In this document: positions 14,010 through 27,700 of the stretch, in pieces
Numbering within the stretch: position 1 is the stretch's first letter
Layout of the letters: every line of letters starts with the position of its first letter
Assembly (NCBI RefSeq): GCF_003945235.1
Contig: NZ_RSDW01000001.1
Span: forward strand, 4,980,001-5,012,000
Direction of reading: 5' to 3'
Length of the DNA: 32,000 nt
Source: Edaphobacter aggregans
Lineage (GTDB): Bacteria; Acidobacteriota; Terriglobia; Terriglobales; Acidobacteriaceae
Made by a program: the position numbers and the translations under genes
The notes under the pieces: generated by a model
What the model was told of the DNA's origin: nothing
Database searches by the model: none
The model's input: the letters and a program-made list of their open reading frames with translations, nothing else

Positions 14010-17000
14010 ATGCCATCTGAGCTACTTGCACTGCGGTTTGCGCCGCGCAAACACTATTGTTTGGTCGCAGCATACTCAATCCTTGGCTTGATTTCCGGAT
14101 GCCACCTATTGGTCGCGAGTTCAGTACCTCGGCCGACTTCCTTAGAGGCGCTCCGAATTGGGCTTTCCGAGGATAAACAAGTCCAGCTCGTCAACGGCTG
14201 GGACTCGGCATACGCTTCAGGCGACCTCGAGCTAGTCACCTCAGCGATAGATATGCTCGAGTCGGCACCGCCAACTTTGCGGCGCAGGATCATTGCCCAA
14301 GCGCACAACTCTACAGCTCTTCCGACACTCTTCAAATCATTGCGTCAACAACAGCAGAAGGACCGTCTGGTCAGCGCGCTTTTTCATTACCCGGATCTGG
14401 TCTCTCCACTTAGCAACGTGCTATCGACTGAACTGTTGTCATTGTCTATGACAAGAGAACAACTGCAATATATTACCGACATTGTCGTCTTGCTGAAGCT
14501 GCAACCGTCGCTGCCAGACGACCTCTATCGGCAGCTGGTTACTAAACAGGATTCGATTCAAGACCCGCAGGTTCGAGAAACAATCGGATCGTTGCTCCTA
14601 GCACACTCTGCGTCGCTCAAGAATCAGGATGCTCAAATCCGAGCGTGGCTGAAGTCAAAGAACTCAGATCAACGTGATCTTGCGACTAAATTGCTGATGC
14701 AAGCGGGCGCAAATCTACCGGATGGGATAGTTGACCAGGCGCTAAACGATCCAAATGGTCCACAAGTGGAAGCGATCAGGTACCTCGGAACTCAACCCAA
14801 GCCTCTATCTCAGAACGATTTGAAGATCCTGATTCCGATACTCGCCAAACCGCAGTCGTCAGAGGCTTGGGAGGCAACGTACAGCACCCTTCAGAAAAAG
14901 AATCCCGATTTCATCAGCACCTTTTCCACACAGTACAAGCAGCAGTTCGATGACTGGGCAAAGCTTAAGCCTTCGGTGTTGATTGGAATTCTTCGAACTC
15001 TTCCTGACGACAAGTCAGGTGAAATCGCCACATGGCCCCTCATCGCAAGCAAGGACGACGATTGCAACATCATGATTGCGAATCTGCTTCTATTGCGCCG
15101 TCGTGCTCTGGCCCACATTGATTTCGGTGAAGGATTGTGGATCGTTCTTCAGGGGCCTCAGACCTGCTCCGGATCGCGCGATGGTGAGGCCTCCATCCTC
15201 TTAGACCAAGTGCTCCATGCGAATCCCGTTGCTTTAGCTGAATTATCGACATTTCTTTCTCTGCGGACTCAGGATAGCAACTGGACAAACTTCACTTCTG
15301 GAATAACCAGCCAAACCGGATGGGAAGCTCTCTACAATGACGGTGGCTCTGGAACTTCCGTCCTGCAACTCGCTCTTTCGCCAGCTCTTACGAAACTACT
15401 GTCGAATGGAGACGAGGCTAAAGCACTGGATCTGCTGCGGCTCGGCGTTCCTTTTTCACCACCGATTTTGGGCAACGAGCCGTTCCTAGCTCGGTACCGA
15501 GGCCACACTGCGTCCTTAAAGGACCCCAGCCTCGAAATTCTAGGCCGGTTAGGCCACCTTCCAAAGGAAATCGCGGATGAGATCCGCGACGTCGCTATGG
15601 ATAGGACTAAGCCAACGACGACCCGTCAGATTGCTATCAGAGCGCTAGCGATGTTGGACGATTCTCAAAGCTATGTCGGAGAGTTCGTAAAGATCGCTCA
15701 GGAACCAATCGACCTACCCTCCGCCGCCGCGCTCAACGCGCTAACGGTTGTCTCTCAGTCTGGGTCACCTACCCCATCAGCTGTCTCGCCTTCTGCATCT
15801 TGGCTCGAGTCAGCCGCTGCTGATCCTCTCACACGAGAGGACGCTTCGCGGCTTCTCGAAGTATTGGCACTCAAGAACAGCGCATTTGGTCCGCTGTTGC
15901 TTCGCTCAATGAGCGACATCACAAGCTATCGCTGTTTGGACCTGGCGGTATTGGATCAACTTACACCCAAGCTTTGGCTCACAATTCTGGACGTCGGGCT
16001 CTCGAACGCCGACAAAATCGACAGGGCTCGCACTTGCGTCATGGTGTTGACCGCGAATCAGCCAAAAGCCACTCTAATAAGCTCCGCATTGACAGGGCCA
16101 AGATCACAGAAGGCACCGGAGAGATCATCCGATCGTCTCGCCTTGCTTTCAGGGTTGGACGGGGTGTGGGGTGAGACTCAAGGCCTCAATCGAGTAAGGG
16201 CGGCCGTTGCAAATCAAGTCGATTTGCTGTCTTCATCCCTCCCTTATGGAGTTGAAAGTCAGAAGCAACTTCGGAGCTGGTCAGATCGGTTGAAGAACGA
16301 GTTTCCCGAAGCATCACAGCGTATTAAGGGAGAGGCAACCAAACAAACCGCTGTTCTGGTAATCCTTGGCATCCCGCTCGCTGTAGCTGTCCATTTTCTC
16401 CTGTGGCTCTTACTTCTCTTCGTGTATCCGCGTTCACCAGCAATCCAGTCGGTGATCTTTTGGAATCCTATTGTCCGGAAGCTCTTGGCGCTTGGCTATA
16501 TGGACTTGATCCTGCTTTCAATGCCCTTTGTACGCAGGATCCTTTTTGGCCCGCTCAGCGAGCAAATGTTGGGGGAAGTGCTCCAACCCAACGAGGGCGA
16601 AATGGATCGCGTTGCCTATTTCCCTAAGGGACGAGTGCGCCGGCTCGTTACTGCCCAAGGCCTAGCCGAGAGCACGCCCACTGAAGAGGCCATTCTGACC
16701 GCGCTCGATCCGCTTCGACGACGGACATTGCTACTGGGAATGTCCGGGCTAGGAAAGTCGAGTTACTTGAGGTTTTCCCTTTATCAAAAGGCGCTACGCA
16801 AGGAGTTCTCCGTCTATCTGCCAGCCGCCCGTTGCCTTGGTGGTGTAGAAAGTGCAATCGCCAACCGCGTTGCGCTATTCTCTCAAGACCGTGATCTTTT
16901 ACACTCTCTCATTCATGCGGGTCGCCTTGAGATCTACATTGACGGTTACAACGAAGTAGATACAGCAACACAGGATGAAATCACGAGCTTCGCGGCGATG

Positions 17001-18401
17001 TTCAGCAGTGGACGTATTCTCGTGACCAGTCAAATACCCATTCGAGGCCTCACGCGGATAGAGACCCTTGAACTGCAGCCCCTACACGAGGATGAGATCG
17101 AGGAGTTTTTGATCGGTCGAGAGCCGGCTCTACCCGAAAACTCGCCTATTCGAGGTGACACCTTTCGGTTCGTGGCCAAAATGTATCTCGAAAATCTTTG
17201 GCGCAACTCTGCTACACATAGTGAGACAAAAGCTATTGCTCAAGTTCTGTCGAATCCGATGGATCTCACCACCGCTGCGATGATTTTGGGGAACGCCAAA
17301 GAACCCAGCCTGTTTGCTCTTCAGGAGCAGCAATTCGAAATGCTGCAGGAGCGATTCGTCCGGCACTACCAGCAATCTTATCGTACAGACCAGTTCTCCG
17401 AGGACGTCTTTACAAGAAGAGTGAGCGACGATGACGATCTTAGCAAATCAACCTACGACAAAGAGGTTGCCTCACTTATCGAATTCAAAATGGCTTTGGT
17501 CAGATCGGTAGAAGTCCCGGGTAAGCCGCCAAGGCAGGAAATACTGTTCCGCCACGATCGAATTCGAGACTATTTCACGCATTTCGCGTTCCTCAGTGAA
17601 AAGCAGGATCAACGTCGGTTCGATTATGCCAACGATAGTCGTTTCGCAGGTGTGTACGAATATCTTGCCAAGGTTCTTGACCTCGGATCCGCTGAGCGTT
17701 TGCGAGAACGGCTGCTGATGAGCGCCGTCGAGAGTCAAGATCACAGACTGAGCGATAGTTTCATCCGTCAACTCGCCTGGCGCCAGCAGTTCGCGTCCGG
17801 TGATCCATCTTGGCTGATTGACTATGACCTGCCGAGCGCACGAGATGCCGATCTTAAGTTCGACGCGTTGCAGTCTGAGAGAGCGAGCCTCGAAAGTCAA
17901 ATGCTACGCCTCAAAGAGACGATGGCCGGGTCTAGAACACTGACTCGCATGATCTCAACAGACGACGGCTCGGCGCTTCTGAGAGTTAGCGTGCAGTGTT
18001 TCGTAGCACTCGGAGGTTCAGTTACGACGTCTTCCACCGGGACTTCTTCTGAGAACCAACTAATCAATTCCCCGAGTGGTGTTCCATTCACATTGGCAAC
18101 GGTCTGTAATCGTGGGTCGATCAATTCCTTTCAACTGGAGCTGCTCATCCAAAGGCTGAAGGATGCATCTCGGCCGGTGTTACTTATTACCAATTCGAAC
18201 ACCTCGATGAAGCCAGATGAGAGACCAAAAGATATCACAGATGATGTGCTCCATAAATTGCTCGGACAAGGCATACTCTGCACCTCGGCGAGAGAGATCT
18301 ACGAAGCTTATGTGGCGCACGTTGCTGGCTCAACAGATGTGATATGGAATGATCTGGAGGCGCTATGGAAAGATATGCAGGACAGCCTCGTAAAGCGTTA
18401 G
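14010..18401 (+). CDS. Giant 1463-aa STAND NTPase: lipobox-like signal, HEAT-like solenoid, TM segment(s), NACHT P-loop domain, coiled coil, unknown C-terminal domain
   Basis: Uninterrupted 4.4-kb ORF. I-S-G-C at residues 28-31 after a basic/hydrophobic leader. HEAT-like strings (DPQVRETIGSLL, GPQVEAIRYLG, TTRQIAIRALAMLDD). 26-aa hydrophobic segment at 781-806 (nt 16350-16427). Walker A GMSGLGKS (nt 16737-16760), Walker B IYIDGYNEV (Asp at 16941-16943), RILVTSQ, LQPLHEDEIEEFL. Confidence 0.85.
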   Translation: MPSELLALRFAPRKHYCLVAAYSILGLISGCHLLVASSVPRPTSLEALRIGLSEDKQVQLVNGWDSAYASGDLELVTSAIDMLESAPPTLRRRIIAQAHNSTALPTLFKSLRQQQQKDRLVSALFHYPDLVSPLSNVLSTELLSLSMTREQLQYITDIVVLLKLQPSLPDDLYRQLVTKQDSIQDPQVRETIGSLLLAHSASLKNQDAQIRAWLKSKNSDQRDLATKLLMQAGANLPDGIVDQALNDPNGPQVEAIRYLGTQPKPLSQNDLKILIPILAKPQSSEAWEATYSTLQKKNPDFISTFSTQYKQQFDDWAKLKPSVLIGILRTLPDDKSGEIATWPLIASKDDDCNIMIANLLLLRRRALAHIDFGEGLWIVLQGPQTCSGSRDGEASILLDQVLHANPVALAELSTFLSLRTQDSNWTNFTSGITSQTGWEALYNDGGSGTSVLQLALSPALTKLLSNGDEAKALDLLRLGVPFSPPILGNEPFLARYRGHTASLKDPSLEILGRLGHLPKEIADEIRDVAMDRTKPTTTRQIAIRALAMLDDSQSYVGEFVKIAQEPIDLPSAAALNALTVVSQSGSPTPSAVSPSASWLESAAADPLTREDASRLLEVLALKNSAFGPLLLRSMSDITSYRCLDLAVLDQLTPKLWLTILDVGLSNADKIDRARTCVMVLTANQPKATLISSALTGPRSQKAPERSSDRLALLSGLDGVWGETQGLNRVRAAVANQVDLLSSSLPYGVESQKQLRSWSDRLKNEFPEASQRIKGEATKQTAVLVILGIPLAVAVHFLLWLLLLFVYPRSPAIQSVIFWNPIVRKLLALGYMDLILLSMPFVRRILFGPLSEQMLGEVLQPNEGEMDRVAYFPKGRVRRLVTAQGLAESTPTEEAILTALDPLRRRTLLLGMSGLGKSSYLRFSLYQKALRKEFSVYLPAARCLGGVESAIANRVALFSQDRDLLHSLIHAGRLEIYIDGYNEVDTATQDEITSFAAMFSSGRILVTSQIPIRGLTRIETLELQPLHEDEIEEFLIGREPALPENSPIRGDTFRFVAKMYLENLWRNSATHSETKAIAQVLSNPMDLTTAAMILGNAKEPSLFALQEQQFEMLQERFVRHYQQSYRTDQFSEDVFTRRVSDDDDLSKSTYDKEVASLIEFKMALVRSVEVPGKPPRQEILFRHDRIRDYFTHFAFLSEKQDQRRFDYANDSRFAGVYEYLAKVLDLGSAERLRERLLMSAVESQDHRLSDSFIRQLAWRQQFASGDPSWLIDYDLPSARDADLKFDALQSERASLESQMLRLKETMAGSRTLTRMISTDDGSALLRVSVQCFVALGGSVTTSSTGTSSENQLINSPSGVPFTLATVCNRGSINSFQLELLIQRLKDASRPVLLITNSNTSMKPDERPKDITDDVLHKLLGQGILCTSAREIYEAYVAHVAGSTDVIWNDLEALWKDMQDSLVKR

Positions 18402-18952
18402 CACGCTTACTGCGAAGGGCATCGTTCGCATTGGGCCTGGCGGTCATACTACTCGCCGGCGCGCACGGTTCAAGGGCTGAGGTGTTTGAGTCTCGCTATT
18501 TGCGTTTTAGCTTGCCTGAAGGGTGGAAGTGCGATCTTGAAGACCATGTGTTTGTATGTGAGCCACCGCACACCAAGGGGCAGAAGGTTAACAAAATCAT
18601 CATGTTTGCGGTCAAGTATCCGGGAGCCGATGACAACTTGTCCTCGTACATGGAGTATCTCAAAACGAATAGATCGATAACGAACGGTTCATCTCTGATA
18701 GATGGACCAAAAATCGACACAGATCTCGGGGCTGTATCGTGGGTGGAGGCTACTCATTATGAATCCGAATTGAAAGGGTTCAATACAACCTATCTGGCTA
18801 CAGTCTCCAACGGACTCGCACTACTTGTTACTTTTAGTGGCGGTAAGGCAGGGTTTTCAGAGTTTCAGCAAATGATGAAGCCCTGTATCAGAAGCCTCGA
18901 AATCAAGAAGAACTGGCGTGATGCCGAGCGCCAGCCTGGCAAGAAAAAATAG
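18365..18952 (+). CDS. Secreted/periplasmic 195-aa protein, translationally coupled to the NACHT gene
   Basis: GGAGG (18356-18360) lies 4 nt before the ATG. 37-nt overlap with the upstream CDS. Signal peptide RRASFALGLAVILLAGAHGSRA/E. Mixed beta-rich mature part beginning FESRYLRFSLPEGW. Confidence 0.65.
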   Translation: MERYAGQPRKALARLLRRASFALGLAVILLAGAHGSRAEVFESRYLRFSLPEGWKCDLEDHVFVCEPPHTKGQKVNKIIMFAVKYPGADDNLSSYMEYLKTNRSITNGSSLIDGPKIDTDLGAVSWVEATHYESELKGFNTTYLATVSNGLALLVTFSGGKAGFSEFQQMMKPCIRSLEIKKNWRDAERQPGKKK

Positions 18953-19043
18953 CCTCGGAAAGGCCGTTGCACCGCGGTTTTCAATGAACCATGGATGGCG
19001 AGTTCATTTCCACAGAGCCTGTCCTAAGTTCCATTAGCCAAGA

Positions 19044-19067
19044 CGTTCGCTAATTCATCAGCGAACG
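19044..19067. terminator. Hairpin between convergent genes (possible bidirectional terminator)
   Basis: CGTTCGCT-AATTCATC-AGCGAACG (8-bp stem). A second hairpin AATGAAC-N12-GTTCATT lies at 18983-19008. No clean U-tracts. Confidence 0.35.
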
Positions 19068-19091
19068 GTCATTGTGGGTGAACCGAATGCA

Positions 19092-20843
19092 TCAGCTGCC
19101 GGGATAACTTACCTTGCCGGCCAGCTGTTTAAATTCAATTGAGTCACTCCAACTGATGGAGCCTGTCGGCGATATCTCGCCAACACCATTGAAGTCCGTG
19201 ACTCTTCCCACAAGATCGGCCAGGCTTGGCCGGTCTGCGTCGTAACGGGACGCGCGGTAGAGGAAAGTGATCCGCGCAGCCAGTGGGCCAACCTCACTCC
19301 AGGTGTTATCCGGATCCTGCCGGCTATTGGCATACGTCCCAGGTTTGGCCGCAAGCAGGACCACATTGCTCGAATGCAGATAAGGCTGGGTGTCAGCCAC
19401 ATGCTCCTGCAGGGTGCCCAGCCGGGACAGAGTGTCGCCAGCAGCGCCTTCGGGACCGACATATACGAAGATATTCTGGCCCTTGTCGGAAACGATTCCA
19501 AGTTCTGACCTCATCCGCTCAAACTCATCCATACGAACACAACCGTCGACGATGAGCGCAAATGGAGTATGGGTCTGCGCGAGTTGCGCATAGAGCTCGC
19601 GAAGAGGCAGAAACCCCGGTGGGAGGGTCTCGAGATTCGCATCGATGGCGTTGGCGAGACGCGCGAGATCACCGATTTTGCTGTCGACCGCGTGCTCGAT
19701 CAATTCCGGCGATCGTGTCGGCAGATTCGCTGGTATTTGTGAGGCCGACCCGAGAATGAGTGCGATGTCGCCACTTGGCCAGGTCATCGTATGCCCGACG
19801 TAGTACGCAATCAGAAACCGACTGTTGTTCCGCTGGACAGTCGTGGCCACCGTCGCGAGAAAGTCTCGGATCCGTTGCTCGGTGAGCGGTCGATCTTCGG
19901 TGCTAATCATGTCTAACCGGGCCGCGGGAGAGTACCGGGCGAGTGTGTTGCCGAATAGCTTTGCGCTGTCAGCATTCCAATCTTGCCGCAGCATGGCTAG
20001 ATTGGGGTAATGACCCGAAGCGATTGTCACCAGAGTCCAAGCAGCGGGTTGTGTCGAGGTTGCCGGAATGACGCTCGACGTGTTTTTTGGCTGGGGACGT
20101 ATCGGGGAGAGGACGACATCGCTTGGCTCCACTCCCAAATGGGTCAGGATAAAGTGGGCGCTACTGGCTTCGAAAGCGAAGATTACCGGGTCAAGTATTT
20201 CAACCCTCACTTCGCCTTGCTGTGCGCGGCTTGCGTCAATGCGGAAGTGCTCCGAATTGATGTTGGACTTAGCAGCCTTGCTCCAGAGCGAACCCTGATC
20301 GGCCCCCTTTCGTTTCAGTAGATAGGTGAGGCGGCCTTGGTAGGCTCTGGTGATAACAACAGGATCGGTACCTTTGTTGGCCGCGCTTTGGGCCTCCTGA
20401 GAGGCCAACAGCTTGCGCTTGAGTGCCGCTACATCCATCTCCAGTATCTTGCCGTCCGTCACCTGAAGGTCCAGCCCAATCTCTTGTTTGCTTGAGGCGG
20501 CCTCGCTGAGCCACGGCACTCCCAGCGAACCCAGAGCGCTGCCAGCTATCTGGTCGTCTGTGGTGAGTTGGAAGCTGCTGCCTGTGTGTAGATCGGTATC
20601 GTTCGCATCGGCAGGATTGAGGATGAACAGTTTTTCCGTAACCAGAATTGTTCCGGGATAGCGGGATGCCGCAGGCGGCAGATTAATGAAAAAGTCGGCA
20701 GCGCGACCCTTGGGGAGGTTCAGTGCGGCAGCAAGGCTCGATCTGAGATCAGCATTTCGCGTAAAAAGGCCAGGAAGAAAGAACACGAGAGCTGTAAGTA
20801 CGACCATGGCAATCAACGTCAGACCGACTTGCTTGCGCGTCAT
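19092..20843 (-). CDS. Membrane-anchored protein: N-terminal TM, unknown beta-rich ~210-aa module, Pro/Ser/Thr linker, caspase-like (clan CD) cysteine peptidase domain
   Basis: ATG at 20843 with AAAGGTGA upstream; the ORF track extends to GTG 20915. TM segment VGLTLIAMVVLTALVFFLPGLF. His block FLIAYYVGH (His codon at 19791-19793), Cys block FALIVDGC (Cys codon at 19539-19541), then a p10-like VVLLAAKPGTYANS...GPLAARITFLY. Confidence 0.6.
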   Translation of the reverse strand: MTRKQVGLTLIAMVVLTALVFFLPGLFTRNADLRSSLAAALNLPKGRAADFFINLPPAASRYPGTILVTEKLFILNPADANDTDLHTGSSFQLTTDDQIAGSALGSLGVPWLSEAASSKQEIGLDLQVTDGKILEMDVAALKRKLLASQEAQSAANKGTDPVVITRAYQGRLTYLLKRKGADQGSLWSKAAKSNINSEHFRIDASRAQQGEVRVEILDPVIFAFEASSAHFILTHLGVEPSDVVLSPIRPQPKNTSSVIPATSTQPAAWTLVTIASGHYPNLAMLRQDWNADSAKLFGNTLARYSPAARLDMISTEDRPLTEQRIRDFLATVATTVQRNNSRFLIAYYVGHTMTWPSGDIALILGSASQIPANLPTRSPELIEHAVDSKIGDLARLANAIDANLETLPPGFLPLRELYAQLAQTHTPFALIVDGCVRMDEFERMRSELGIVSDKGQNIFVYVGPEGAAGDTLSRLGTLQEHVADTQPYLHSSNVVLLAAKPGTYANSRQDPDNTWSEVGPLAARITFLYRASRYDADRPSLADLVGRVTDFNGVGEISPTGSISWSDSIEFKQLAGKVSYPGS

Positions 20844-20923
20844 CCGTTTCACCTTTCTATTTCCATGCCACGATGCCCGCAATTCTAAGTGCTGCCGCCG
20901 TAGCGGGCAACTCACTCCCGTCG

Positions 20924-22699
20924 TTATCGCCGGCTCCTTCTTATCCCGTCAGCCACGACAAGATCCGGGTTTTCCTTGGGGAAGAGGATCTTCACCATGT
21001 TCTTGTAGATCGAGATCCATTCGGCGTGGAGCCAGTCGTTCTCTCGCCAACACAATCCGCTGAGATCGATTGCTTGTAGTGGGGCCGTAAGCGAAGGATT
21101 TGAGTCGAGCCACTTCTCGAGAATCTCCGGCAAAGTCGATTTTGCAAAGAACCCCGTGACCATCTCGAGGCTTTCGATCCCTGAACAGAAGATCGGTCGG
21201 ATCTGGCGTGGTGGGAATGCGTTCCGATCCAGATGCTCATCAAGAAAAGTGTTTAAGAAAGCGGGCATACCGATCGTGCCGCCAATGGAGTCAAGCGTGA
21301 CGATATAAAGATAGACGTGTTTAATTTCCGTGAGATCTATTTCCGGCGTCACCTTCGAGGCATTGACCCCAAACAGCGTCTGCGTGGCCTCAACGAGTTG
21401 CAGTACGCCCTTCCTGCCAGATGACTCCTTGTCCTCAACAAGCTTCTTTTCAATTTCCGCCGTAAGAGCCAAATGGTCGCCGCTGTACTTGGTATCTGCC
21501 CGAAACATGCTGGACTTGTACTCCATCAGCACGATTGAATCGCCGGATACGACGATGCCGTCGCATATCTGCATATCCGGCCGACCCGATGGCTTGGGGT
21601 CAGGGATGAAGCGAGCCTGAGTCCCAGCACATGCGCACCGCATGAGTTCATTTACGTACTTCTCAAATACTGCGCCCCAGAACTTCCGCAGCTTCAGCCC
21701 GTGGTGAGCACTGGCATGCCAGTAAGGGCCGGTCAGAACCTTCTCAAGAAAAAAGAGGTTGTCTATCATCAGATACCCACACCATGCCGTCGTTTGGTGC
21801 AGGTTATAAAACTGTTGCACGAGCGGAAATCTGCGGAAGATAGTGAAATCGTTCGGGCCGTTATCCTTCACCCGGAGTTCGCGCGCCATCCTGGTTGGAT
21901 TGGCGGCAAGCAAATCCAAAAACTTCGACACCTTCGTCGGCTCGATCGCAGTCGGCGAAAAGTTAGCTTCTTTGAGTGGCAATGTTCCAGGTTCCCTATA
22001 GAGGGCTTTCGATAGTTCTTCTCCAAATCGAGCGTGAGTACCGAAGATCATCGATTGATACTCTTCGAGAGTCAGTCCGGTTTCCTTCTGGTACTCCCCA
22101 GCCACATCAACAAAATCTGGGTCCTGGCGAAGTTCATCGGTGAAGCGAGTCAGCATGAGGTGACTGCGCGTGATGAGTTGGGTGATTTCCGGAGATGCGT
22201 CTTCGCCAACGGCGATCATCTCCGCAATGATCTTTGAGAATTCCTCGCGCTCTGCGACCGGCCGACCTGCATTCGCAAGATCGGTGAGCAGGCCGTAGTC
22301 GAACTGGTCGTTTGCCTTTAGCAGGATGGAGCCGAAGCGCTCAGCATGGAGACGTGCATCTGTTCCGCCTGAACAGTGAAGAATCGCGATCTTGGCAATC
22401 AGGAGTACTTGTCTGCGGTGGAATAGCACTCTTCTCGGATTCGAGCTCCAGTATCCGGCGATGAATCGAATATGAAGGTCGGCCTCGAAGTAAAGAGAGA
22501 GAAGGCTTTTATAGACGTCCGCAGGCTGAAAATCCACCTTATTCCAAAGCTGCAAACCGGTCACGATTACTGCGCAAACCCAGAGCACCGATTGCTGGGT
22601 GAATGGGCGAATCTCCGCGATGAGCTCGTCCATCGTGCTCTTCCTGCCATAGACATTCTCGAATGTCTCGTACACCGCGAGTTGGGAAGCGGTCCTCAT
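20924..22699 (-). CDS. 591-aa protein with helical N-terminal half and a PD-(D/E)xK nuclease-like core
   Basis: GGGGGAT RBS. GAVFEKYVNELM ... ICDGIVVSGDSIVLMEYKS (D380 or D387, E393, K395; nt 21515-21562) resembles restriction-endonuclease-fold signatures. 80-nt gap to the downstream caspase-like gene on the same strand. Confidence 0.5.
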   Translation of the reverse strand: MRTASQLAVYETFENVYGRKSTMDELIAEIRPFTQQSVLWVCAVIVTGLQLWNKVDFQPADVYKSLLSLYFEADLHIRFIAGYWSSNPRRVLFHRRQVLLIAKIAILHCSGGTDARLHAERFGSILLKANDQFDYGLLTDLANAGRPVAEREEFSKIIAEMIAVGEDASPEITQLITRSHLMLTRFTDELRQDPDFVDVAGEYQKETGLTLEEYQSMIFGTHARFGEELSKALYREPGTLPLKEANFSPTAIEPTKVSKFLDLLAANPTRMARELRVKDNGPNDFTIFRRFPLVQQFYNLHQTTAWCGYLMIDNLFFLEKVLTGPYWHASAHHGLKLRKFWGAVFEKYVNELMRCACAGTQARFIPDPKPSGRPDMQICDGIVVSGDSIVLMEYKSSMFRADTKYSGDHLALTAEIEKKLVEDKESSGRKGVLQLVEATQTLFGVNASKVTPEIDLTEIKHVYLYIVTLDSIGGTIGMPAFLNTFLDEHLDRNAFPPRQIRPIFCSGIESLEMVTGFFAKSTLPEILEKWLDSNPSLTAPLQAIDLSGLCWRENDWLHAEWISIYKNMVKILFPKENPDLVVADGIRRSRR

Positions 22700-22778: not shown

Positions 22779-22902
22779 CGACCACATTTCTGGCAAATGG
22801 CCGGGGTTGATTTCGCGGAAGGGAGGCATAAAGTGGGCAGCTAATGCAATTTTATGGCTCAAGTCGCACCCCTTTATAAACAACGTGAAAGGAACCCTCA
22901 GC

Positions 22903-23961
22903 ATGCGCAATGCGGGCAGGCTTAAGCTCGGTTATTATCCGCTGCCTACAGAAGAAGGCCACTGGCTGCGGCGGCTTCTCCAAAGCACGGAACCCTTCAG
23001 TGCAATCGACCCTTGTGTCGGAATGGGGGCAGCTCTGCATCTCATTACCGCTGATCTTCCATGTCGACGTTATGGCGTCGAACTCGATGCGGAGCGGGCG
23101 CTCGCCGCTTCCCGGTCGGGGATCGAGACGGTACAGGGAGACCTCTTCGACGCACATGCCAAGGTAGAGTCGTTCTCTCTCTTGTACCTTAATCCCCCAT
23201 ATGACTCAGAAATAGGGACGCTCAACAACCAGCGCATGGAGCTGCTCTTTCTCGAGCACACCTACCGTTGGCTTGTGCACAGCGGGGTCCTCTTGTTTGT
23301 AGTGCCGGAGAAGCGGCTTTCGGTGTGCATTCCGCTGTTGGCAGCGAACTTCACCGGTTTTCGTTTGTTCCGGCTCAACGATCCCGAATCCATCCGCTTC
23401 GAACAGGTCGTGCTTGCGGCGGTACGAAAGCCGATGCGGGGGGATGCGATGGAAGCGAATCGCTCTGTGCTGCAACGACTGATCTTCAATACGGAGCCTC
23501 TCAATCTGGAAGACGAGCATGAACCGTACTACTTACCCGCAACGCCACCTGCGGCCATTGCTTACCGTGGACTTCCCTTCGACGCGATCGAAGACCTGAT
23601 TCCCAACTCGCCCGCATGGAAGCAGGTTGCGCCTTTTCTGTTGCCGAAAGAAGAGATGGCTTCCGGCCGGCCGATCACACCCCTGCACGCGGGCCACGTC
23701 GGCCTGCTCTGCACGGCAGGTTTGCTCAACGGAGTCTTCGGTGAGGGAGCGGATCGTCACATCGCACGGTGGCGGTCGGTGAAGCACACCACCATCAGCA
23801 AGGAGAAGGAAGACAACGTAGAGATCATCCGCAAGCGCGAGCGTTTCTCGAACGAACTTTCCCTCGTTTACCAGGACGGACGAACCCTCGTCCTCACCGA
23901 GTCTGCAAAGACAGTGGAGGCAGAAGATGCAGAATGCACACCTACGGCTGGGGCAGCTTGA
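22903..23961 (+). CDS. SAM-dependent DNA methyltransferase, NPPY type (probably N6-adenine)
   Basis: GAAAGGA RBS. Motif I IDPCVGMG (nt 23005-23028) precedes motif IV LNPPY (NPPY at nt 23191-23202). No adjacent restriction endonuclease recognised. Confidence 0.8.
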   Translation: MRNAGRLKLGYYPLPTEEGHWLRRLLQSTEPFSAIDPCVGMGAALHLITADLPCRRYGVELDAERALAASRSGIETVQGDLFDAHAKVESFSLLYLNPPYDSEIGTLNNQRMELLFLEHTYRWLVHSGVLLFVVPEKRLSVCIPLLAANFTGFRLFRLNDPESIRFEQVVLAAVRKPMRGDAMEANRSVLQRLIFNTEPLNLEDEHEPYYLPATPPAAIAYRGLPFDAIEDLIPNSPAWKQVAPFLLPKEEMASGRPITPLHAGHVGLLCTAGLLNGVFGEGADRHIARWRSVKHTTISKEKEDNVEIIRKRERFSNELSLVYQDGRTLVLTESAKTVEAEDAECTPTAGAA

Positions 23962-24571
23962 GTATCTGCGCTCCACTGCCAACATCCAGACACGGATACG
24001 GCTGCAGGTAGATCGCTACATGGGCGAAGAGGCTGACGGGTATTTACTCAGCCTTTATGGCGGTGATGCCGAGGTCGGCGCCATCGCCGCGGCGATCCAT
24101 GAGAAACATCCGTTCACACTGACGTTCCCCGACGGCAAAAGCAAGACGGTCAGCATGGGAGCGGATGCGTCCTGCTACCGCGGCAGCGTGGCGGTTCCCG
24201 GCCGCAAACAACCACTGCGTCATCTGGTCGCTGTCTCCCAAGCGCTTCATGCGAACGGAGCAGCAGGGAAGACCTACCTGCTCAATTACGAGCGATCACT
24301 GGCCTGGTCGGCACTAGTGAGCTTCCTCGGACTTCCGGCAGACCCGCGATGGGGTGCGGCGATGATGGATGTTCTGGAGCGAGAAGAAAAGGTGCAGGAG
24401 CTTGAGGGCATCGGCTGTCAGCCGGTAGTGATTCATGCCACGCGAAGCAGCCTGCTCGAGGCTGTATCGAGGGGTCTTGGACGGCGGGAGCTTTGCTTCC
24501 CGGAGGTCAACGGGCCTGTGTTCTGGCCTTCATTTCGCATCGGGGAGGCCTTGAATATTGGGAAGTTCTGA
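23927..24571 (+). CDS. Hypothetical 214-aa protein, overlapping and coupled to the methyltransferase gene
   Basis: GGAGG lies 6 nt upstream of ATG 23927. 35-nt overlap with the MTase CDS. No motif recognised. Confidence 0.6.
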   Translation: MQNAHLRLGQLEYLRSTANIQTRIRLQVDRYMGEEADGYLLSLYGGDAEVGAIAAAIHEKHPFTLTFPDGKSKTVSMGADASCYRGSVAVPGRKQPLRHLVAVSQALHANGAAGKTYLLNYERSLAWSALVSFLGLPADPRWGAAMMDVLEREEKVQELEGIGCQPVVIHATRSSLLEAVSRGLGRRELCFPEVNGPVFWPSFRIGEALNIGKF

Positions 24572-24691
24572 GTCTCGCATGAGGCGGTAGGTTTTCCAAG
24601 AGAATGCGGAGCGTTCCAATGCAGAGAAGAGCCATTTATCGGTGAGAGTTGGCTTGGTTCCACAAATCCGATTTCACATTCCCCAAATGAA

Positions 24692-24721
24692 TTGGCACTT
24701 TTAGTGTCAAGCGCGTATATC
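24692..24721 (+). promoter_or_regulatory. Candidate sigma70-type promoter for mcrBC
   Basis: TTGGCA - 18 nt - TATATC, about 80 nt upstream of the mcrB ATG. Pattern match only. Confidence 0.25.
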
Positions 24722-24800
24722 TTGACCGGCCTTTGTTGGTTGCTGCGCAGGGCGGTTATATTTGTAGCCCTACTCGAACTCCGAGCTGAGGTGAACCGTC

Positions 24801-26444
24801 ATGGCGGACGAAATCGGAGCATTTACGTGGACATCCTTTTATCAGGAGCTTGCGGACAAACTGGTACTGTACCGCGATCGCCAGGAAGAACTCATTTCTA
24901 TTCTGGAAACGCTGCGAGGCAAGAAATTAACGATTACTCCCTTCGAGGACAAAGATGAGACCGGTCGCCGTTTCGCGCTGACCATTATCGACCCCTTTAC
25001 ATTCTTCGGGACATTCAACCGTCGGATTGAAACCAACACACGGGTTGCGATTCTGCGAGAACTAAAGTCTATTTTCGACCTGTCCGCTGACGCGCCCTCC
25101 GACTTCACCGGAATCCCGGTATTGGACCCGCGCAATTCCTGGTTCTTGGTATGGAGTCACCTCCGAAAAGCTACAGATGTGCCGCAATTATGGGATGTGT
25201 TCGATAAGGCGCTTCTTCCAAACGCAATGCAAAATATTGAATTTGCCCGCGGATTCGATGCAGCAGTTCAAATCCGAAACGTCGATATAAACCTAACAAT
25301 GGGTTTGTTTTGGATTCGGCCATTTACCTTTCTCAGTTTCGACAGCAATAACCGCAAATTCTTAAACATCAAGCTTCCGAGGGAAGGTTTGTCCTTCGAG
25401 TTCTACCGTACGACGTTGGAAAGAATCAAAGCAGAACGGGACGAGGACTTTCCTCACATCTCCCGCTCAGCATGGCTCGCCGGCAATGAGCCGGTAGTTG
25501 GCACCACCCACGGGACACCCAGCGTTGCGAAGCCGAAAACAGCTGTACCCATTCAAGGCGCCTCCCAATACTCGGTGGCGGCCATGTTGGCGGAGGGCGT
25601 CTTCTTGGATGCACGTAGGATCGAAGAAGCGCTCCACCGTTGGAAGACTAAAAAAAACCTGATCCTGCAGGGGCCACCCGGTGTGGGGAAGACATTTGTG
25701 GCCGCGAAATTGGCCTACGCGCTTCTTGAAGAGCGGAAATCGTCCCGAGTGGAGGTGGTCCAATTCCATCCCTCATTCGCCTATGAAGATTTTGTTCGTG
25801 GATATCGTCCAACAGTTGAGGCGGGCAAATTCGAACTGATGGACGGTCCTCTACGTAAGATTTGCAAGCGAGCTGATAACGATCCTGAACAAAAGTATGT
25901 GCTGCTAATCGATGAGATCAACCGTGCCAATCTCTCGCAGGTCTTCGGTGAGCTATTGATGCTGCTGGAGAGTGACAAGCGTGGTGCGAACTACTCTGTT
26001 ACTCCCCTCTATCCTGCCCAAGAGGAAGAAAAGTTTCATGTCCCCGAGAATCTCTTTTTCATCGGAACAATGAACATCGCGGACCGTTCCCTCGCGCTGG
26101 TCGACTTTGCTCTGCGACGCCGGTTTGCCTTTCTCACCCTTGAGCCGAACTACGGATTGCCCTTTCGTACGTGGCTTGAGGAGCGCGGCATGAACAGTTT
26201 GCTCACAGAGAAGATCGTGCAGCGGATGACCGCACTCAACAGCCAGATCAGCAATGACTCTTTTCTTGGATCCGCGTACCAGGTCGGCCATAGTTTCTTT
26301 TGTCCTCCAGGTGATGATTTCTCAGAACTTGGCGACCAGTGGTACAGAGAAGTAATCGAGACGGAGATCGAGCCACTCTTACAGGAGTACTGGTTTGACA
26401 AGCGCGAGAACGCCAAATCGGCAACAGATGCTCTATTAGCGTGA
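24801..26444 (+). CDS. mcrB: McrB-family AAA+ GTPase subunit of a modification-dependent restriction system
   Basis: Walker A GPPGVGKT (nt 25671-25694), Walker B LLIDEINRANLSQVFGELLMLLE (from nt 25902), McrB signature FIGTMNIADRS (MNIADRS at nt 26070-26090) and ALRRRFAF. About 280-aa N-terminal domain of a different type. Confidence 0.9.
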   Translation: MADEIGAFTWTSFYQELADKLVLYRDRQEELISILETLRGKKLTITPFEDKDETGRRFALTIIDPFTFFGTFNRRIETNTRVAILRELKSIFDLSADAPSDFTGIPVLDPRNSWFLVWSHLRKATDVPQLWDVFDKALLPNAMQNIEFARGFDAAVQIRNVDINLTMGLFWIRPFTFLSFDSNNRKFLNIKLPREGLSFEFYRTTLERIKAERDEDFPHISRSAWLAGNEPVVGTTHGTPSVAKPKTAVPIQGASQYSVAAMLAEGVFLDARRIEEALHRWKTKKNLILQGPPGVGKTFVAAKLAYALLEERKSSRVEVVQFHPSFAYEDFVRGYRPTVEAGKFELMDGPLRKICKRADNDPEQKYVLLIDEINRANLSQVFGELLMLLESDKRGANYSVTPLYPAQEEEKFHVPENLFFIGTMNIADRSLALVDFALRRRFAFLTLEPNYGLPFRTWLEERGMNSLLTEKIVQRMTALNSQISNDSFLGSAYQVGHSFFCPPGDDFSELGDQWYREVIETEIEPLLQEYWFDKRENAKSATDALLA

Positions 26445-27532: not shown

Positions 27533-27700
27533 TTCAATGTTTCAACTGTCAAGATGATCATCTCTAGAGGTCTTGGATCATTTACGAAGTCCTGGCATCA
27601 TCAGATGAGTATCCTCTCCAACGCTTAGAAAGCTCCCCTATCGAGGCCATCCCAACGCTGGCCTTTTCTTTTGCTGATTCGCGCTTTCAGGAGCCCCATC

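What the first reader, a model, noticed from the sequence alone, without database searches (positions are those of the whole stretch)
14010..22699. Convergent 8.7-kb accessory block: membrane-spanning NACHT operon facing a nuclease-like + caspase-like operon (candidate undescribed NLR/caspase-type defence or cell-death system)
Seen directly:
- Four large non-housekeeping ORFs form two convergent two-gene units, 14010-18952 on + and 22699-19092 on -. They meet at a 139-nt gap that holds two hairpins.
- Motifs read from the translations are a NACHT-type P-loop (GMSGLGKS / IYIDGYNEV / RILVTSQ), a clan-CD-like His...Cys pair (YYVGH codon at 19791-19793, VDGC codon at 19539-19541) and a PD-(D/E)xK-like D...EYK (21515-21562).
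- The block lies between the element's replication/recombination module and a methyltransferase/McrBC/helicase cluster, which is a defence-island-like context.
- Spot G+C counts of single 60-nt lines are lower in parts of the block than in flanking backbone. Inside: 26/60 at 14401, 25/60 at 15241, 26/60 at 21301. Flanks: 35/60 at 9601, 35/60 at 23281. The caspase-like gene looks backbone-like (34/60 at 19801). These are spot checks, not statistics.

Established: STAND/NACHT NTPases, caspase-like proteases (partnered with gasdermins) and PD-(D/E)xK nucleases are each known building blocks of bacterial anti-phage and programmed-death systems.

Inference: I cannot assign this combination to any named system. 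It joins a sensor NTPase with a probably extracytoplasmic repeat domain, a membrane-anchored caspase-like protease carrying an unknown beta-rich module, and a stand-alone nuclease-like protein. It may be one functional unit or two neighbouring systems.
Basis: partly seen in the sequence, partly recalled or inferred. Interest (0 to 1): 0.9.

Follow-up and report, generated by a model that had tools for sequence, protein, structure and literature searches.

The report
Three separate defence-like modules, not one
The 8.7-kb block is real, but it is three independently mobile cargo modules of an acidobacterial conjugative element: a membrane-spanning NLR-like ATPase with a secreted partner, a caspase-fold protein whose front half looks like a bacterial gasdermin, and a distant relative of the known GAPS1 anti-phage nuclease.

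Summary
The window is Edaphobacter aggregans chromosome, inside a conjugative element. All ORFs, motifs and codon coordinates in the finding check out.

- A is a NACHT-like STAND NTPase.
- C has a caspase fold with an invariant His/Cys pair.
- D is a PD-(D/E)xK protein with invariant D380/E393/K395.

The four genes are not one system. A+B is a conserved, translationally coupled pair (5 of 5 loci) that never has C or D nearby elsewhere. C and D each occur alone in most other contexts. They are adjacent in only one other locus, a related element, in the opposite gene order and with a 29%-identical D.

- **D:** a distant relative of the experimentally validated single-gene defence GAPS1.
- **C:** its N-terminal domain matches the PADLOC bacterial-gasdermin model in 12 of 26 family members, colinearly. 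C is therefore probably a single-chain gasdermin-like plus caspase-like fusion with an N-terminal membrane helix. I found no such fusion described in the gasdermin papers I checked.
- **A:** belongs to a large uncharacterised family (687 clusters) built as signal peptide, helical repeats, TM, NACHT-like NTPase. B is a secreted, Cys-containing partner.

Verdict: a defence-island-like cargo hotspot. It holds one distant member of a known family and two new variants of known kinds. Moderately interesting.

The parts
14010..18401 (+). Gene A (1463 aa), a membrane-spanning NACHT-like STAND NTPase. Layout: N-terminal signal/anchor segment (aa 17-35), about 740-aa extracytoplasmic domain with 4 invariant Cys, TM segment (aa 780-806), cytoplasmic NTPase plus helical domains (aa ~890-1258), then a coiled coil and an alpha/beta C-terminal domain (aa ~1275-1463).
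   Evidence: ORF. Hydrophobic segments. Alignment of 5 homologues. 687 relatives of the cytoplasmic half. Pfam NACHT, AAA_22 and HEAT hits in relatives. NLRC4 is the best fold match, from a model with pLDDT 56.
16737..16760 (+). Walker A motif of A, GMSGLGKS (aa 910-917; K916).
   Evidence: Position. G910, S912, G913, G915, K916 and S917 are invariant in the A family. The corresponding residues are invariant in 37 distant relatives.
16932..16958 (+). Walker B region of A, IYIDGYNEV (D978-G-x-N-E982), NACHT-like DGxDE type.
   Evidence: The D, G, N and E are invariant across distant relatives.
17013..17033 (+). RILVTSQ, a sensor-1-like strand of A. It resembles the NACHT TSRP motif; that comparison is from memory, not tested.
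   Evidence: The family consensus is ..TQP.
17997..18398 (+). C-terminal alpha/beta domain of A (aa ~1330-1463), function unknown. It is present only in the closest relatives, roughly 25 of the 150 listed clusters.
   Evidence: AF2 pLDDT is about 80 for this part. The profile matches of most relatives end at about query position 400.
18365..18952 (+). Gene B (195 aa), a secreted partner of A. It has a signal peptide with cleavage predicted at ..SRA|EVFES, and the mature protein of about 155 aa has 3 invariant Cys. It overlaps the end of A by 37 nt, implying translational coupling.
   Evidence: The A-B pair, with about the same 37-nt overlap by the called gene coordinates, is present in L010, L011, L012 and L013.
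18953..19091 (.). Convergent intergenic gap of 139 nt with two hairpins (18952-18965 and about 19045-19070). These are likely terminators for the two converging transcripts.
   Evidence: z = -1.8 and -2.1.
19092..20843 (-). Gene C (583 aa from ATG 20843), a single-chain fusion. Layout: N-terminal hydrophobic helix (aa 6-26; 20766-20828), gasdermin-like beta-rich domain (aa ~30-235; 20139-20756), disordered linker with a conserved PxDVxL motif (aa 236-268; 20040-20138), and a caspase-fold domain (aa 269-550; 19194-20039).
   Evidence: 43 homologues, and a source name 'Caspase domain-containing protein'. Alignment. AF2 model. Foldseek hits to caspase-7/-3/-6/-9 and metacaspase at E about 1e-5. 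Giant-virus caspases and metacaspases at E about 2e-6. PADLOC bGSDM model hits 12 of 26 family members, colinearly. Ribosome-binding site.
19791..19793 (-). Predicted catalytic His of C. It is H351 in the 583-aa numbering and H375 in the 607-aa ORF numbering.
   Evidence: Invariant in 26 homologues. It lies just after beta strand 343-349 of the model.
19539..19541 (-). Predicted catalytic Cys of C. It is C435 in the 583-aa numbering and C459 in the ORF numbering; the motif is DGC.
   Evidence: D433, G434 and C435 are invariant. They lie at the C-terminal end of beta strand 428-433.
20844..20923 (-). D-C spacer of 80 nt, with a sigma-70-like promoter match (TTGCCC-17-TAGAAT, 20910-20882) and the ribosome-binding site of C. 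It suggests that C can be transcribed on its own.
   Evidence: The translated spacer still matches upstream of C in L014, where D is absent.
20924..22699 (-). Gene D (591 aa), a GAPS1-related PD-(D/E)xK protein. The region matching the GapS1 model is aa 199-472 (21284-22105). The catalytic candidates are D380 (21560-21562), E393 (21521-21523) and K395 (21515-21517).
   Evidence: NCBIfam antiphage_GapS1: E = 9e-8 for D and hits in 33 of 35 family members. Homologues stand alone in 4 of 4 other contexts.

Best explanation
The block is a cargo (defence-island-like) hotspot of an Edaphobacter conjugative element. It holds three functionally independent modules that happen to be neighbours.

1. A-B.
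- A is a NACHT-like STAND NTPase threaded through the inner membrane.
- Its large Cys-containing N-terminal domain lies outside the cytoplasm. Its NTPase, helical domains and a C-terminal alpha/beta domain lie inside.
- B is a small secreted protein, translationally coupled to A.
- Inferred mechanism: B and/or the outer domain of A bind an extracytoplasmic cue. Nucleotide-dependent oligomerisation of the cytoplasmic STAND module follows, and the C-terminal domain then acts as effector or signal.

2. C.
- C is one polypeptide that joins a membrane-tethering N-terminal helix, a gasdermin-like domain, a flexible linker and a caspase-fold His/Cys protease.
- Inferred mechanism: on activation the protease cuts the linker, in cis or in trans. 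The candidate site is near the invariant PxDVxL motif.
- The cut frees the gasdermin-like domain to oligomerise and permeabilise the membrane, giving abortive-infection-type death.

3. D.
- D is a stand-alone GAPS1-like PD-(D/E)xK phosphodiesterase.
- By analogy with GAPS1 it senses a phage protein and arrests growth.

Shown here: the gene structures, the residue conservation, the caspase fold, the remote homologies and the non-co-occurrence of the modules. Inferred: the triggers, the membrane topology of C, the cleavage, pore formation and any anti-phage role.
For: Independence of the modules.
- A+B occur together in 5 of 5 loci with close A homologues, with about the same 37-nt overlap by the called gene coordinates. 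No C or D lies within 10 kb of them outside the window.
- D homologues (45-65% identity) stand alone in 4 of 4 contexts, next to integrases, a toxin gene or conjugation genes.
- C homologues lack D, A and B in the Silvibacterium genome, in two long metagenome contigs and in all 19 metagenome loci.
- No neighbour family is shared among C contexts beyond local synteny.

Identity of A.
- A profile of its cytoplasmic half finds 687 cluster representatives.
- 37 sampled relatives hit AAA_22 (25), NACHT (16) and HEAT repeats (18).
- Many relatives have a signal peptide and a TM segment about 110 aa before the Walker A motif.
- NLRC4 is the best PDB fold match.

Identity of B.
- It has a signal peptide and 3 invariant Cys.

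Identity of C.
- It has a caspase fold.
- H351 and C435 are invariant and sit at or just after the C-terminal ends of beta strands.
- The PADLOC bGSDM model hits 12 of 26 family members. The best E-value is 2e-6, and the matches map protein aa ~162-243 onto profile positions 136-217 of 257.

Identity of D.
- The GapS1 model hits 33 of 35 family members, with a best E-value of 6e-13.
- D380, E393 and K395 are invariant.
- GAPS1 is a validated single-protein defence whose D313 and K328 are essential (bioRxiv 10.1101/2023.03.28.534373).
Against: Evidence for a link between modules.
- C and a D-like gene are adjacent a second time, in L007. This is a related element, the order is C then D', the gap is 17 nt, and D' is 29% identical to D and also GapS1-like. 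That is more than random expectation for two rare families.
- L007 also carries an A-like gene about 9.5 kb from C.
- In L009 a different STAND NTPase lies directly upstream of C.

Weaknesses in the gasdermin call.
- It rests on weak HMM hits of 14-25 bits, all in one related clade.
- The window's own C does not reach E <= 1 against the model.
- PDB sequence-profile searches found no gasdermin.
- The N-terminal domain of the AF2 model has only low to medium confidence.

Other difficulties.
- The positive-inside rule weakly favours an N-in topology for C. That would put both of its domains in the periplasm.
- Copies of C truncated exactly at the linker persist in several soil samples (L025-L029). 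This is awkward if a freed N-terminal domain is constitutively toxic.
- D scores 31 bits against a GapS1 cutoff of 320.
- Distant relatives of A sit in ordinary-looking chromosomal contexts in cyanobacteria. An immune role for A-B is therefore not established.
Confidence: 0.68

Rival explanations
1. D and C form a two-gene system. A GapS1-like sensor/nuclease works with, or licenses, the gasdermin-like/caspase-like executioner C.
For: - They lie on the same strand 80 nt apart in the window.
- In L007 a C homologue is followed 17 nt later by another GapS1-like gene.
- That makes two adjacencies among roughly ten independent C contexts, for two rare families (43 and 104 clusters in 5.8 billion proteins).
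Against: - The gene order is opposite in the two cases, and the two D proteins are only 29% identical.
- The closest C relatives (76-85% identity: L005, L014, L015) and the closest D relatives with context (45-65%: L001-L004) lack the partner.
- C has its own promoter-like element and ribosome-binding site, in a spacer whose translation still matches where D is absent.
- GAPS1 is self-sufficient.
- Both adjacencies are in the same element family, where cargo hotspots are shared.
Confidence: 0.17
2. All four genes are one NLR/caspase/nuclease system. A-B senses, C executes by proteolysis, and D degrades nucleic acid.
For: - The four genes are tightly packed in a convergent arrangement.
- L007 carries A-like, C and D-like genes within 14 kb.
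- Gasdermin-associated proteases are often fused to NACHT or repeat sensors in bacteria.
Against: - Three long A-B loci contain no C or D.
- C and D loci contain no A or B.
- In L007 the element's methyltransferase and SNF2 backbone genes separate the A-like gene from C.
Confidence: 0.05
3. C is not a death effector. It is a membrane-anchored, extracytoplasmic clan-CD protease that processes envelope, surface or conjugation-related proteins. On this reading its N-terminal domain is a non-gasdermin beta-rich module.
For: - The charge distribution around the N-terminal helix weakly favours N-in, C-out (sequence).
- C recurs as cargo of one element family: W, L005, L007 and L016 share backbone genes.
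- In another clade it sits at a syntenic chromosomal site next to what looks like a housekeeping gene (L020, L021, L025).
- Copies truncated after the N-terminal domain persist.
- The gasdermin signal is weak.
Against: - The colinear bGSDM model hits in 12 family members have per-protein E-values down to 2e-6.
- The size of the N-terminal domain (about 240 aa) and its position directly before a disordered linker and a caspase-fold domain mirror the gasdermin-plus-protease logic.
- Several contexts are classical defence islands: L008 has RM and E1/E2/JAB genes, and L009 has SIR2 and a STAND NTPase.
Confidence: 0.2
4. A-B is an envelope signalling receptor unrelated to defence. It would be an outside-in STAND switch responding to an environmental or cell-wall cue, carried on the element by chance.
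For: - The wider family (687 clusters) is common in cyanobacteria and Bacteroidia. In the five genome loci examined the contexts show no evident defence genes.
- No recognisable toxic effector domain was found in A.
Against: - NACHT-type STANDs in bacteria are predominantly immune sensors.
Confidence: 0.4

Closest known systems
GAPS1 (GMT-island anti-phage system 1; NCBIfam NF047931 antiphage_GapS1), Mahata et al., bioRxiv 10.1101/2023.03.28.534373
   Same: - D and 33 of 35 of its relatives match the GapS1 model over aa 199-472, corresponding to profile positions 127-375.
- The D...ExK motif has the same 15-residue D-to-K spacing: D380/K395 here against D313/K328 in GAPS1.
- D is a single gene carried on mobile elements.
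   Different: - The score is 31 bits against a family cutoff of 320, so D lies outside the curated family.
- D is 591 aa against a 455-position GapS1 model. About 200 N-terminal and about 120 C-terminal residues are unmatched.
- D's relatives with organism names are Acidobacteria.
- The trigger and the phenotype are untested.
Bacterial gasdermin plus caspase-like protease operons (Johnson et al. 2022; bioRxiv 10.1101/2021.06.07.447441)
   Same: - C has a gasdermin-sized (about 240 aa) beta-rich domain that matches the PADLOC bGSDM model in family members.
- That domain is followed by a disordered loop and partnered with a caspase-fold His/Cys protease.
   Different: - Here the two parts are one polypeptide rather than two genes.
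- There is no N-terminal Cys for palmitoylation. A hydrophobic helix takes that position.
- The protease carries no repeat or NACHT sensor domain.
- Pfam Peptidase_C14, CHAT and Gasdermin models do not hit.
- I found no such fusion mentioned in the two gasdermin papers whose text I searched for fusions.
Bacterial NACHT / NLR-related STAND NTPases (bNACHT, Kibby et al., bioRxiv 10.1101/2022.07.19.500537; Avs families, PMC13581612)
   Same: - A has a Walker A motif, a DGxxE-type Walker B and an NPMDL motif (NPxxL-like).
- Pfam NACHT, AAA_16 and nSTAND1 models hit relatives.
- NLRC4 is the best fold match.
- bNACHT proteins with TM regions are already thought to sense periplasmic or membrane signals.
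- 'Transmembrane STAND ATPases' are mentioned as sensors.
   Different: - The putative sensor is N-terminal and extracytoplasmic, behind a signal peptide. It is not a C-terminal cytoplasmic repeat array.
- A itself hits no Pfam, PADLOC or NCBIfam model.
- A has an obligate secreted partner, B.
- Its C-terminal alpha/beta domain has no assigned function.
EACC1-caspase membrane-associated two-gene systems (Kaur et al. 2020, PMC7159879; PMC12642450)
   Same: A membrane-associated module is combined with a caspase-superfamily protease, and proteolysis is thought to release a pore former.
   Different: - EACC1 is a small separate protein of roughly 13 kDa, judging from its two cleavage fragments.
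- Its caspase lies at the N-terminus of a multidomain partner.
- In C, a roughly 240-aa domain precedes a C-terminal caspase domain in a single chain.

Membership tests
GAPS1 / antiphage_GapS1 (NF047931) | Score above the curated NCBIfam cutoff (320 bits) | tested here: not met
   D scores 31.4 bits, E = 9e-8. The best family member has E = 6e-13. D is a distant relative, not a member as curated.
GAPS1 / antiphage_GapS1 (NF047931) | Conserved PD-(D/E)xK active site (GAPS1 D313 and K328 are essential) | tested here: met
   D380, E393 and K395 are invariant in 35 homologues. They lie inside the region aligned to the model. The D-to-K spacing matches that reported for GAPS1.
GAPS1 / antiphage_GapS1 (NF047931) | Self-contained single-gene system on mobile elements | tested here: met
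   Homologues stand alone in L001-L004 with unrelated neighbours, namely integrases, PemK and TrbI.
GAPS1 / antiphage_GapS1 (NF047931) | Anti-phage protection, capsid-protein trigger, dormancy | not testable with these tools
   Requires experiments.
Clan CD caspase-like peptidase (C14 / CHAT) | Caspase-hemoglobinase fold | tested here: met
   The AF2 model has pLDDT mostly above 80 (about 90 over aa 270-350) within aa 269-550. Foldseek hits caspase-7, -3, -6, -9 and metacaspase 9 at E about 1e-5 with target TM-score about 0.6. It also hits viral caspases and metacaspases.
Clan CD caspase-like peptidase (C14 / CHAT) | His then Cys catalytic dyad at or just after the C-terminal ends of beta strands, conserved | tested here: met
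   H351 and C435 are invariant in 26 homologues. They follow strands 343-349 and 428-433. Residue-level superposition on a caspase active site could not be inspected.
Clan CD caspase-like peptidase (C14 / CHAT) | Match to Pfam Peptidase_C14 or CHAT | tested here: not met
   No Pfam hit for C or for its 26 relatives. The only trace is Raptor_N caspase-like at E = 0.22 in 3 members.
Bacterial gasdermin (bGSDM) system | Gasdermin-domain homology | tested here: inconclusive
   PADLOC PDLC02986 bGSDM hits 12 of 26 C-family members, E = 2e-6 to 5e-3, colinearly with profile positions 136-217. The window protein itself does not hit. PDB sequence-profile searches were negative. No domain-level structural comparison was possible.
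Bacterial gasdermin (bGSDM) system | Dedicated caspase-like protease encoded alongside | tested here: met
   The protease is present as a covalent fusion in the same polypeptide.
Bacterial gasdermin (bGSDM) system | N-terminal Cys (palmitoylation) found in most bGSDMs | tested here: not met
   The N-terminus is MTRKQVGL.. with no Cys at that position. The mature protein has a single Cys, C435. A hydrophobic helix (aa 6-26) occupies the N-terminus.
Bacterial gasdermin (bGSDM) system | Exposed cleavage loop before a short inhibitory C-terminal peptide; pore formation after cleavage | tested here: inconclusive
   A disordered linker spans aa 235-268 and has an invariant PxDVxL motif. Cleavage and pore formation cannot be tested here.
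NACHT-clade STAND NTPase | Walker A GxxGxGK[ST] and Walker B hhhhDGxxE | tested here: met
   GMSGLGKS and IYIDGYNEV are invariant in the family and in distant relatives.
NACHT-clade STAND NTPase | Match to Pfam NACHT (PF05729) at the gathering score | tested here: not met
   A itself has no hit. 16 of 37 distant relatives hit with a best E-value of 1.9e-5; whether any reaches the gathering score was not shown.
NACHT-clade STAND NTPase | STAND fold: NBD, helical domain, winged helix | tested here: inconclusive
   The AF2 model of aa 858-1463 has pLDDT 56. The best PDB match is NLRC4 (4kxf) at E = 1.4e-4, followed by RFC and other AAA+ proteins and by NB-ARC.
   The tblastn tally over 37 loci gives A+B alone in 4 loci, C alone in more than 10 contexts, D alone in 4, and only L007 with C, a D-like gene and a distant A-like gene.

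The most novel reading that the evidence does not exclude
C is an autonomous one-polypeptide 'pyroptosis cassette'. A gasdermin-like pore former is tethered to the membrane by an N-terminal helix, in place of palmitoylation, and is fused through a cleavable linker to its own caspase-like protease. Self-cleavage alone would then convert it into a membrane pore. Next to it, A-B would be an outside-in bacterial NLR that senses an extracytoplasmic signal through a periplasmic domain and a secreted co-receptor.
Probability: 0.35. Interest if true: 0.8.

Novelty: new variant of a known kind. Interest (0 to 1): 0.55.

Why it matters
**C.** If C is a gasdermin-caspase fusion, executioner and activator sit in one chain. 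That would be the most compact form of the caspase-to-gasdermin death pathway. It would also be a simple system for studying how cleavage licenses pore formation, and how a sensor-less protease is triggered.

**A-B.** If A-B is an immune receptor, NLR-type sensing in bacteria would extend to signals outside the cytoplasm, such as phage adsorption, DNA injection or envelope damage. It would also define a function for a family of about 700 protein clusters that reaches no curated domain-model threshold for its NTPase.

**D.** D extends the GAPS1 family into Acidobacteria.

**General.** The negative result also matters. Tight packing in a cargo hotspot should not be read as one system.

Tried and rejected
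- **Domain libraries.** Pfam, NCBIfam and PADLOC on the four proteins gave nothing, apart from the weak GapS1 hit for D.
- **PDB sequence searches.** Searches with single proteins and with profiles of A, C and the N-terminal domain of C found no meaningful hits.
- **Exact-sequence look-up of C.** The 607-aa GTG-start form is not on record. This supports the shorter ATG start.
- **Conserved partner of C.** All-against-all clustering of flanking ORFs over 33 loci, plus targeted tblastn of candidate neighbours (DUF4238, a STAND NTPase, upstream ORFs), found none beyond local synteny.
- **Plasmid collection.** tblastn with C and D found no match.
- **Genome-collection scan with the A profile.** It returned only 5 distant loci and no B-like partner.
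- **AF2 of A's cytoplasmic half.** With a 5-sequence alignment the model was poor (pLDDT 56), so the C-terminal domain of A could not be classified.
- **Viral structure library.** It only reconfirmed the caspase fold and gave nothing for the N-terminal domain of C.
- **bGSDM sequences for a profile-profile test.** None were held in the paper supplements.
- **tRNA genes.** None are present to mark an element boundary.
- **Lipoprotein idea for A.** I rejected it. The LISGC lipobox-like motif is not conserved in homologues.

Full report
**Source and setting**

The 591-aa ORF at 20924-22699(-) is 100% identical to EDE15_4194 of Edaphobacter aggregans, on a 6.15-Mb contig. The neighbouring ORFs are EDE15_4193 and EDE15_4191.

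The flanking genes are those of a conjugative element:
- Left of the block: a CagX-like protein, a type IV coupling protein, an AEP primase, SSB and Rad52.
- Right of the block: a DUF6094 methyltransferase, McrB, McrC, an SNF2-type helicase and Gp157.

No tRNA gene is present in the window.

**Checking the observation**

- One correction concerns the start of C. It most likely starts at ATG 20843, giving 583 aa. There is an AAGGTG ribosome-binding site 6 nt upstream, it is the start of the NCBI-sourced record, and most full-length homologues are about 580-600 aa and begin at the aligned position. D and C are therefore separated by 80 nt. That spacer contains a promoter-like match.
- The convergent gap is 139 nt and has two hairpins. 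Its folding energy is only about 2 sd better than shuffles.
- G+C is modestly lower in A, B and D (0.49-0.53) than in the flanks (0.55-0.56). C is backbone-like at 0.57.

**Are the four genes one unit?**

I collected contexts for homologues of each gene and searched all 37 fetched loci with the four proteins.

| Gene(s) | Homologues found | Context result |
|---|---|---|
| A+B | 4 close A homologues, 56-59% identity | Each is followed by a B homologue with about the same 37-nt overlap, in unrelated surroundings. No C or D within 10 kb. |
| D | 104 homologue clusters | Four long contexts show it alone, next to integrases, a PemK toxin or conjugation genes. |
| C | 43 homologue clusters | No A, B or D in the Silvibacterium bohemicum genome, two long contigs or 19 metagenome loci. 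|

- No flanking gene family is shared among C contexts beyond local synteny.
- The single exception is L007. It is a related element that shares the methyltransferase, a small backbone gene and the SNF2 helicase with the window.
- In L007, C (45% identity) is followed 17 nt later by a GapS1-like protein only 29% identical to D. An A-like 1468-aa gene lies 9.5 kb away, beyond the backbone genes.

The block is therefore best read as three modules in a cargo hotspot. There is a residual possibility of a loose C-D affinity.

**Module D**

- NCBIfam's antiphage_GapS1 model matches D over aa 199-472 (E = 9e-8). It matches 33 of 35 family members, with a best E-value of 6e-13. All scores are far below the 320-bit family cutoff.
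- D380, E393 and K395 are invariant.
- GAPS1 is a single-protein PD-(D/E)xK defence from Vibrio GMT islands. It is triggered by the T7 capsid protein, causes dormancy, and is abolished by D313A and K328A. Validated homologues are only 24-29% identical to one another.
- D is thus a distant GAPS1-like protein. By analogy it is a self-contained defence gene.

**Module C**

Caspase-fold half:
- The AF2 model has mean pLDDT 69, and is mostly well predicted (pLDDT above 80, about 90 over aa 270-350) between aa 269 and 550.
- It matches caspase-7, -3, -6, -9 and metacaspase 9 in the PDB (E about 1e-5, target TM-score about 0.6). It also matches giant-virus caspases and metacaspases.
- H351 and C435 are invariant in 26 homologues. 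Each sits at or just after the C-terminal end of a beta strand.
- No Pfam C14 or CHAT model hits C or its relatives.

N-terminal half:
- It consists of a hydrophobic helix (aa 6-26) followed by a beta-rich domain of about 200 aa.
- Scanning the family against PADLOC gave an unexpected result. The bacterial gasdermin model PDLC02986 hits 12 of 26 members.
- The E-values range from 2e-6 to 5e-3. The hits always map protein residues ~162-243 onto profile positions 136-217 of 257. The whole N-terminal domain is therefore colinear with a full-length bGSDM.
- The domain is followed by a disordered, Pro/Ser/Thr-rich linker (aa 235-268). The linker begins with an invariant PxDVxL motif.
- Bacterial gasdermins are about 260 aa. 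They are held inactive by a short C-terminal peptide and are released by cleavage in a loop by an adjacent caspase-like protease. Most carry an N-terminal palmitoyl-Cys.

C therefore looks like gasdermin and protease fused in one chain, with a hydrophobic helix where the lipid anchor would be.

Caveats:
- The HMM hits are weak and come from one clade. The window's own protein does not reach E <= 1.
- PDB sequence-profile searches were negative.
- The model confidence of the N-terminal domain is mediocre.
- The membrane topology is unresolved.
- Copies truncated exactly at the linker persist in several soil samples.

I found no gasdermin-protease single-chain fusion in the two gasdermin papers whose text I searched for fusions.

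**Module A-B**

- A itself hits nothing in Pfam, NCBIfam, PADLOC or PDB sequences.
- A profile of its cytoplasmic half (aa 858-1463) finds 687 cluster representatives, 359 of them at E <= 1e-30.
- The conserved core runs from the TM segment through the NTPase and the following helical domains, about aa 790-1258 of A. The N-termini of relatives vary.
- Of 37 sampled relatives, 25 hit AAA_22, 16 hit NACHT, 9 hit AAA_16 and 4 hit nSTAND1. Eighteen carry HEAT repeats N-terminally.
- Many relatives begin with a signal peptide and have the TM segment about 110 residues before the Walker A motif.
- The low-confidence model of A's cytoplasmic half matches NLRC4 best, then clamp loaders and NB-ARC.
- B has a clear signal peptide (..ASA|EVFES in homologues) and three invariant Cys. 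The N-terminal domain of A has four invariant Cys. Both point to an extracytoplasmic location for that domain.
- The C-terminal coiled coil and alpha/beta domain of A, and the partner B, are confined to the closest relatives. Distant relatives in cyanobacteria and Bacteroidia lack both.
- TM-containing bacterial NACHT proteins and 'transmembrane STAND ATPases' are mentioned in the literature as probable sensors of periplasmic or membrane signals. I found no characterised example of this architecture.

**Verdict**

- The headline interpretation of one undescribed NLR/caspase system is not supported.
- What is there is a defence-island-like cargo region with three parts. The first is a distant relative of a named defence gene. 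The second is a probable gasdermin-caspase fusion, a new variant of a known kind at moderate confidence. The third is an uncharacterised transmembrane NACHT-like receptor with a secreted partner, a new variant whose function is unknown.
- Interest is moderate (0.55). The two variants are worth experiments, but their mechanisms rest on remote homology.

Noticed in passing
window 16347-17783 (A aa ~780-1258) and proteins P0153-P0301: A's TM, NTPase and helical core defines a large family: 687 clusters at 50% identity. It has a conserved juxtamembrane motif (YPxSxxVQAxxFWNP..GLGY) and mostly signal-peptide plus HEAT-repeat N-termini. A itself matches no Pfam model, and relatives give only weak NACHT and AAA_22 hits.
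   Followed up: partly
L025-L029 (for example L025 7905-8876): In five soil metagenome contigs the C homologue is truncated exactly at the linker after the gasdermin-like domain (..FAFEASSARYITNHLGPNP, then unrelated sequence). It lies next to an integrase. Other copies (L021, L022, L024, L031) are frameshifted, so C genes decay often.
   Followed up: partly
L009 6117-11671: A C homologue lies about 500 nt downstream, on the same strand, of an 1128-aa nSTAND1/TPR STAND NTPase. SIR2 and integrase genes are nearby. This may be a classical sensor-plus-protease arrangement in that genome.
   Followed up: no
L008 1-21755 and L018: A C homologue is embedded in a dense defence island: HEPN_AbiV, an Mrr-type endonuclease with a methylase, a HATPase-domain gene, DUF4238, patatin, an E2/E1/JAB (ubiquitin-like conjugation) gene and a type I RM system. 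The patatin gene directly downstream of C is conserved in L018.
   Followed up: no
L003 5997-11848: A D (GapS1-like) homologue sits divergently next to a TPR-CHAT caspase-like protease and an S41 peptidase. This is a second, unrelated instance of a GapS1-like gene beside a clan-CD protease.
   Followed up: no
window 22807-29989; L007 1475-6472; L005 1-5400: The DUF6094 methyltransferase, a gene of about 215-230 aa and the SNF2 helicase are shared between the window and L007. Gp157 is shared between the window and Silvibacterium (L005). A further 235-aa gene links L005, L007 and L016. Together these point to a family of acidobacterial conjugative elements with variable cargo slots. In the window a McrBC pair is inserted between the methyltransferase module and the helicase.
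   Followed up: partly
window 9537-10544: The element's primase matches the AEP domain of the 'TOTE conflict system' Pfam family (PF22548, E = 1e-25). Here it sits with SSB and Rad52 in what looks like a replication/recombination module.
   Followed up: no
L033 25-7426: In a Bacteroidia MAG, two A-like genes (1097 and 1366 aa) lie in tandem. The family can therefore occur as paralogous arrays.
   Followed up: no
L010 19768-21552 and L012 5118-7391: Two of the three long A-B loci share another uncharacterised gene (594 and 757 aa) about 5 kb from A-B, on different sides. In L010 it is next to an Eco57I-type methylase. This may be coincidental co-travelling cargo.
   Followed up: no
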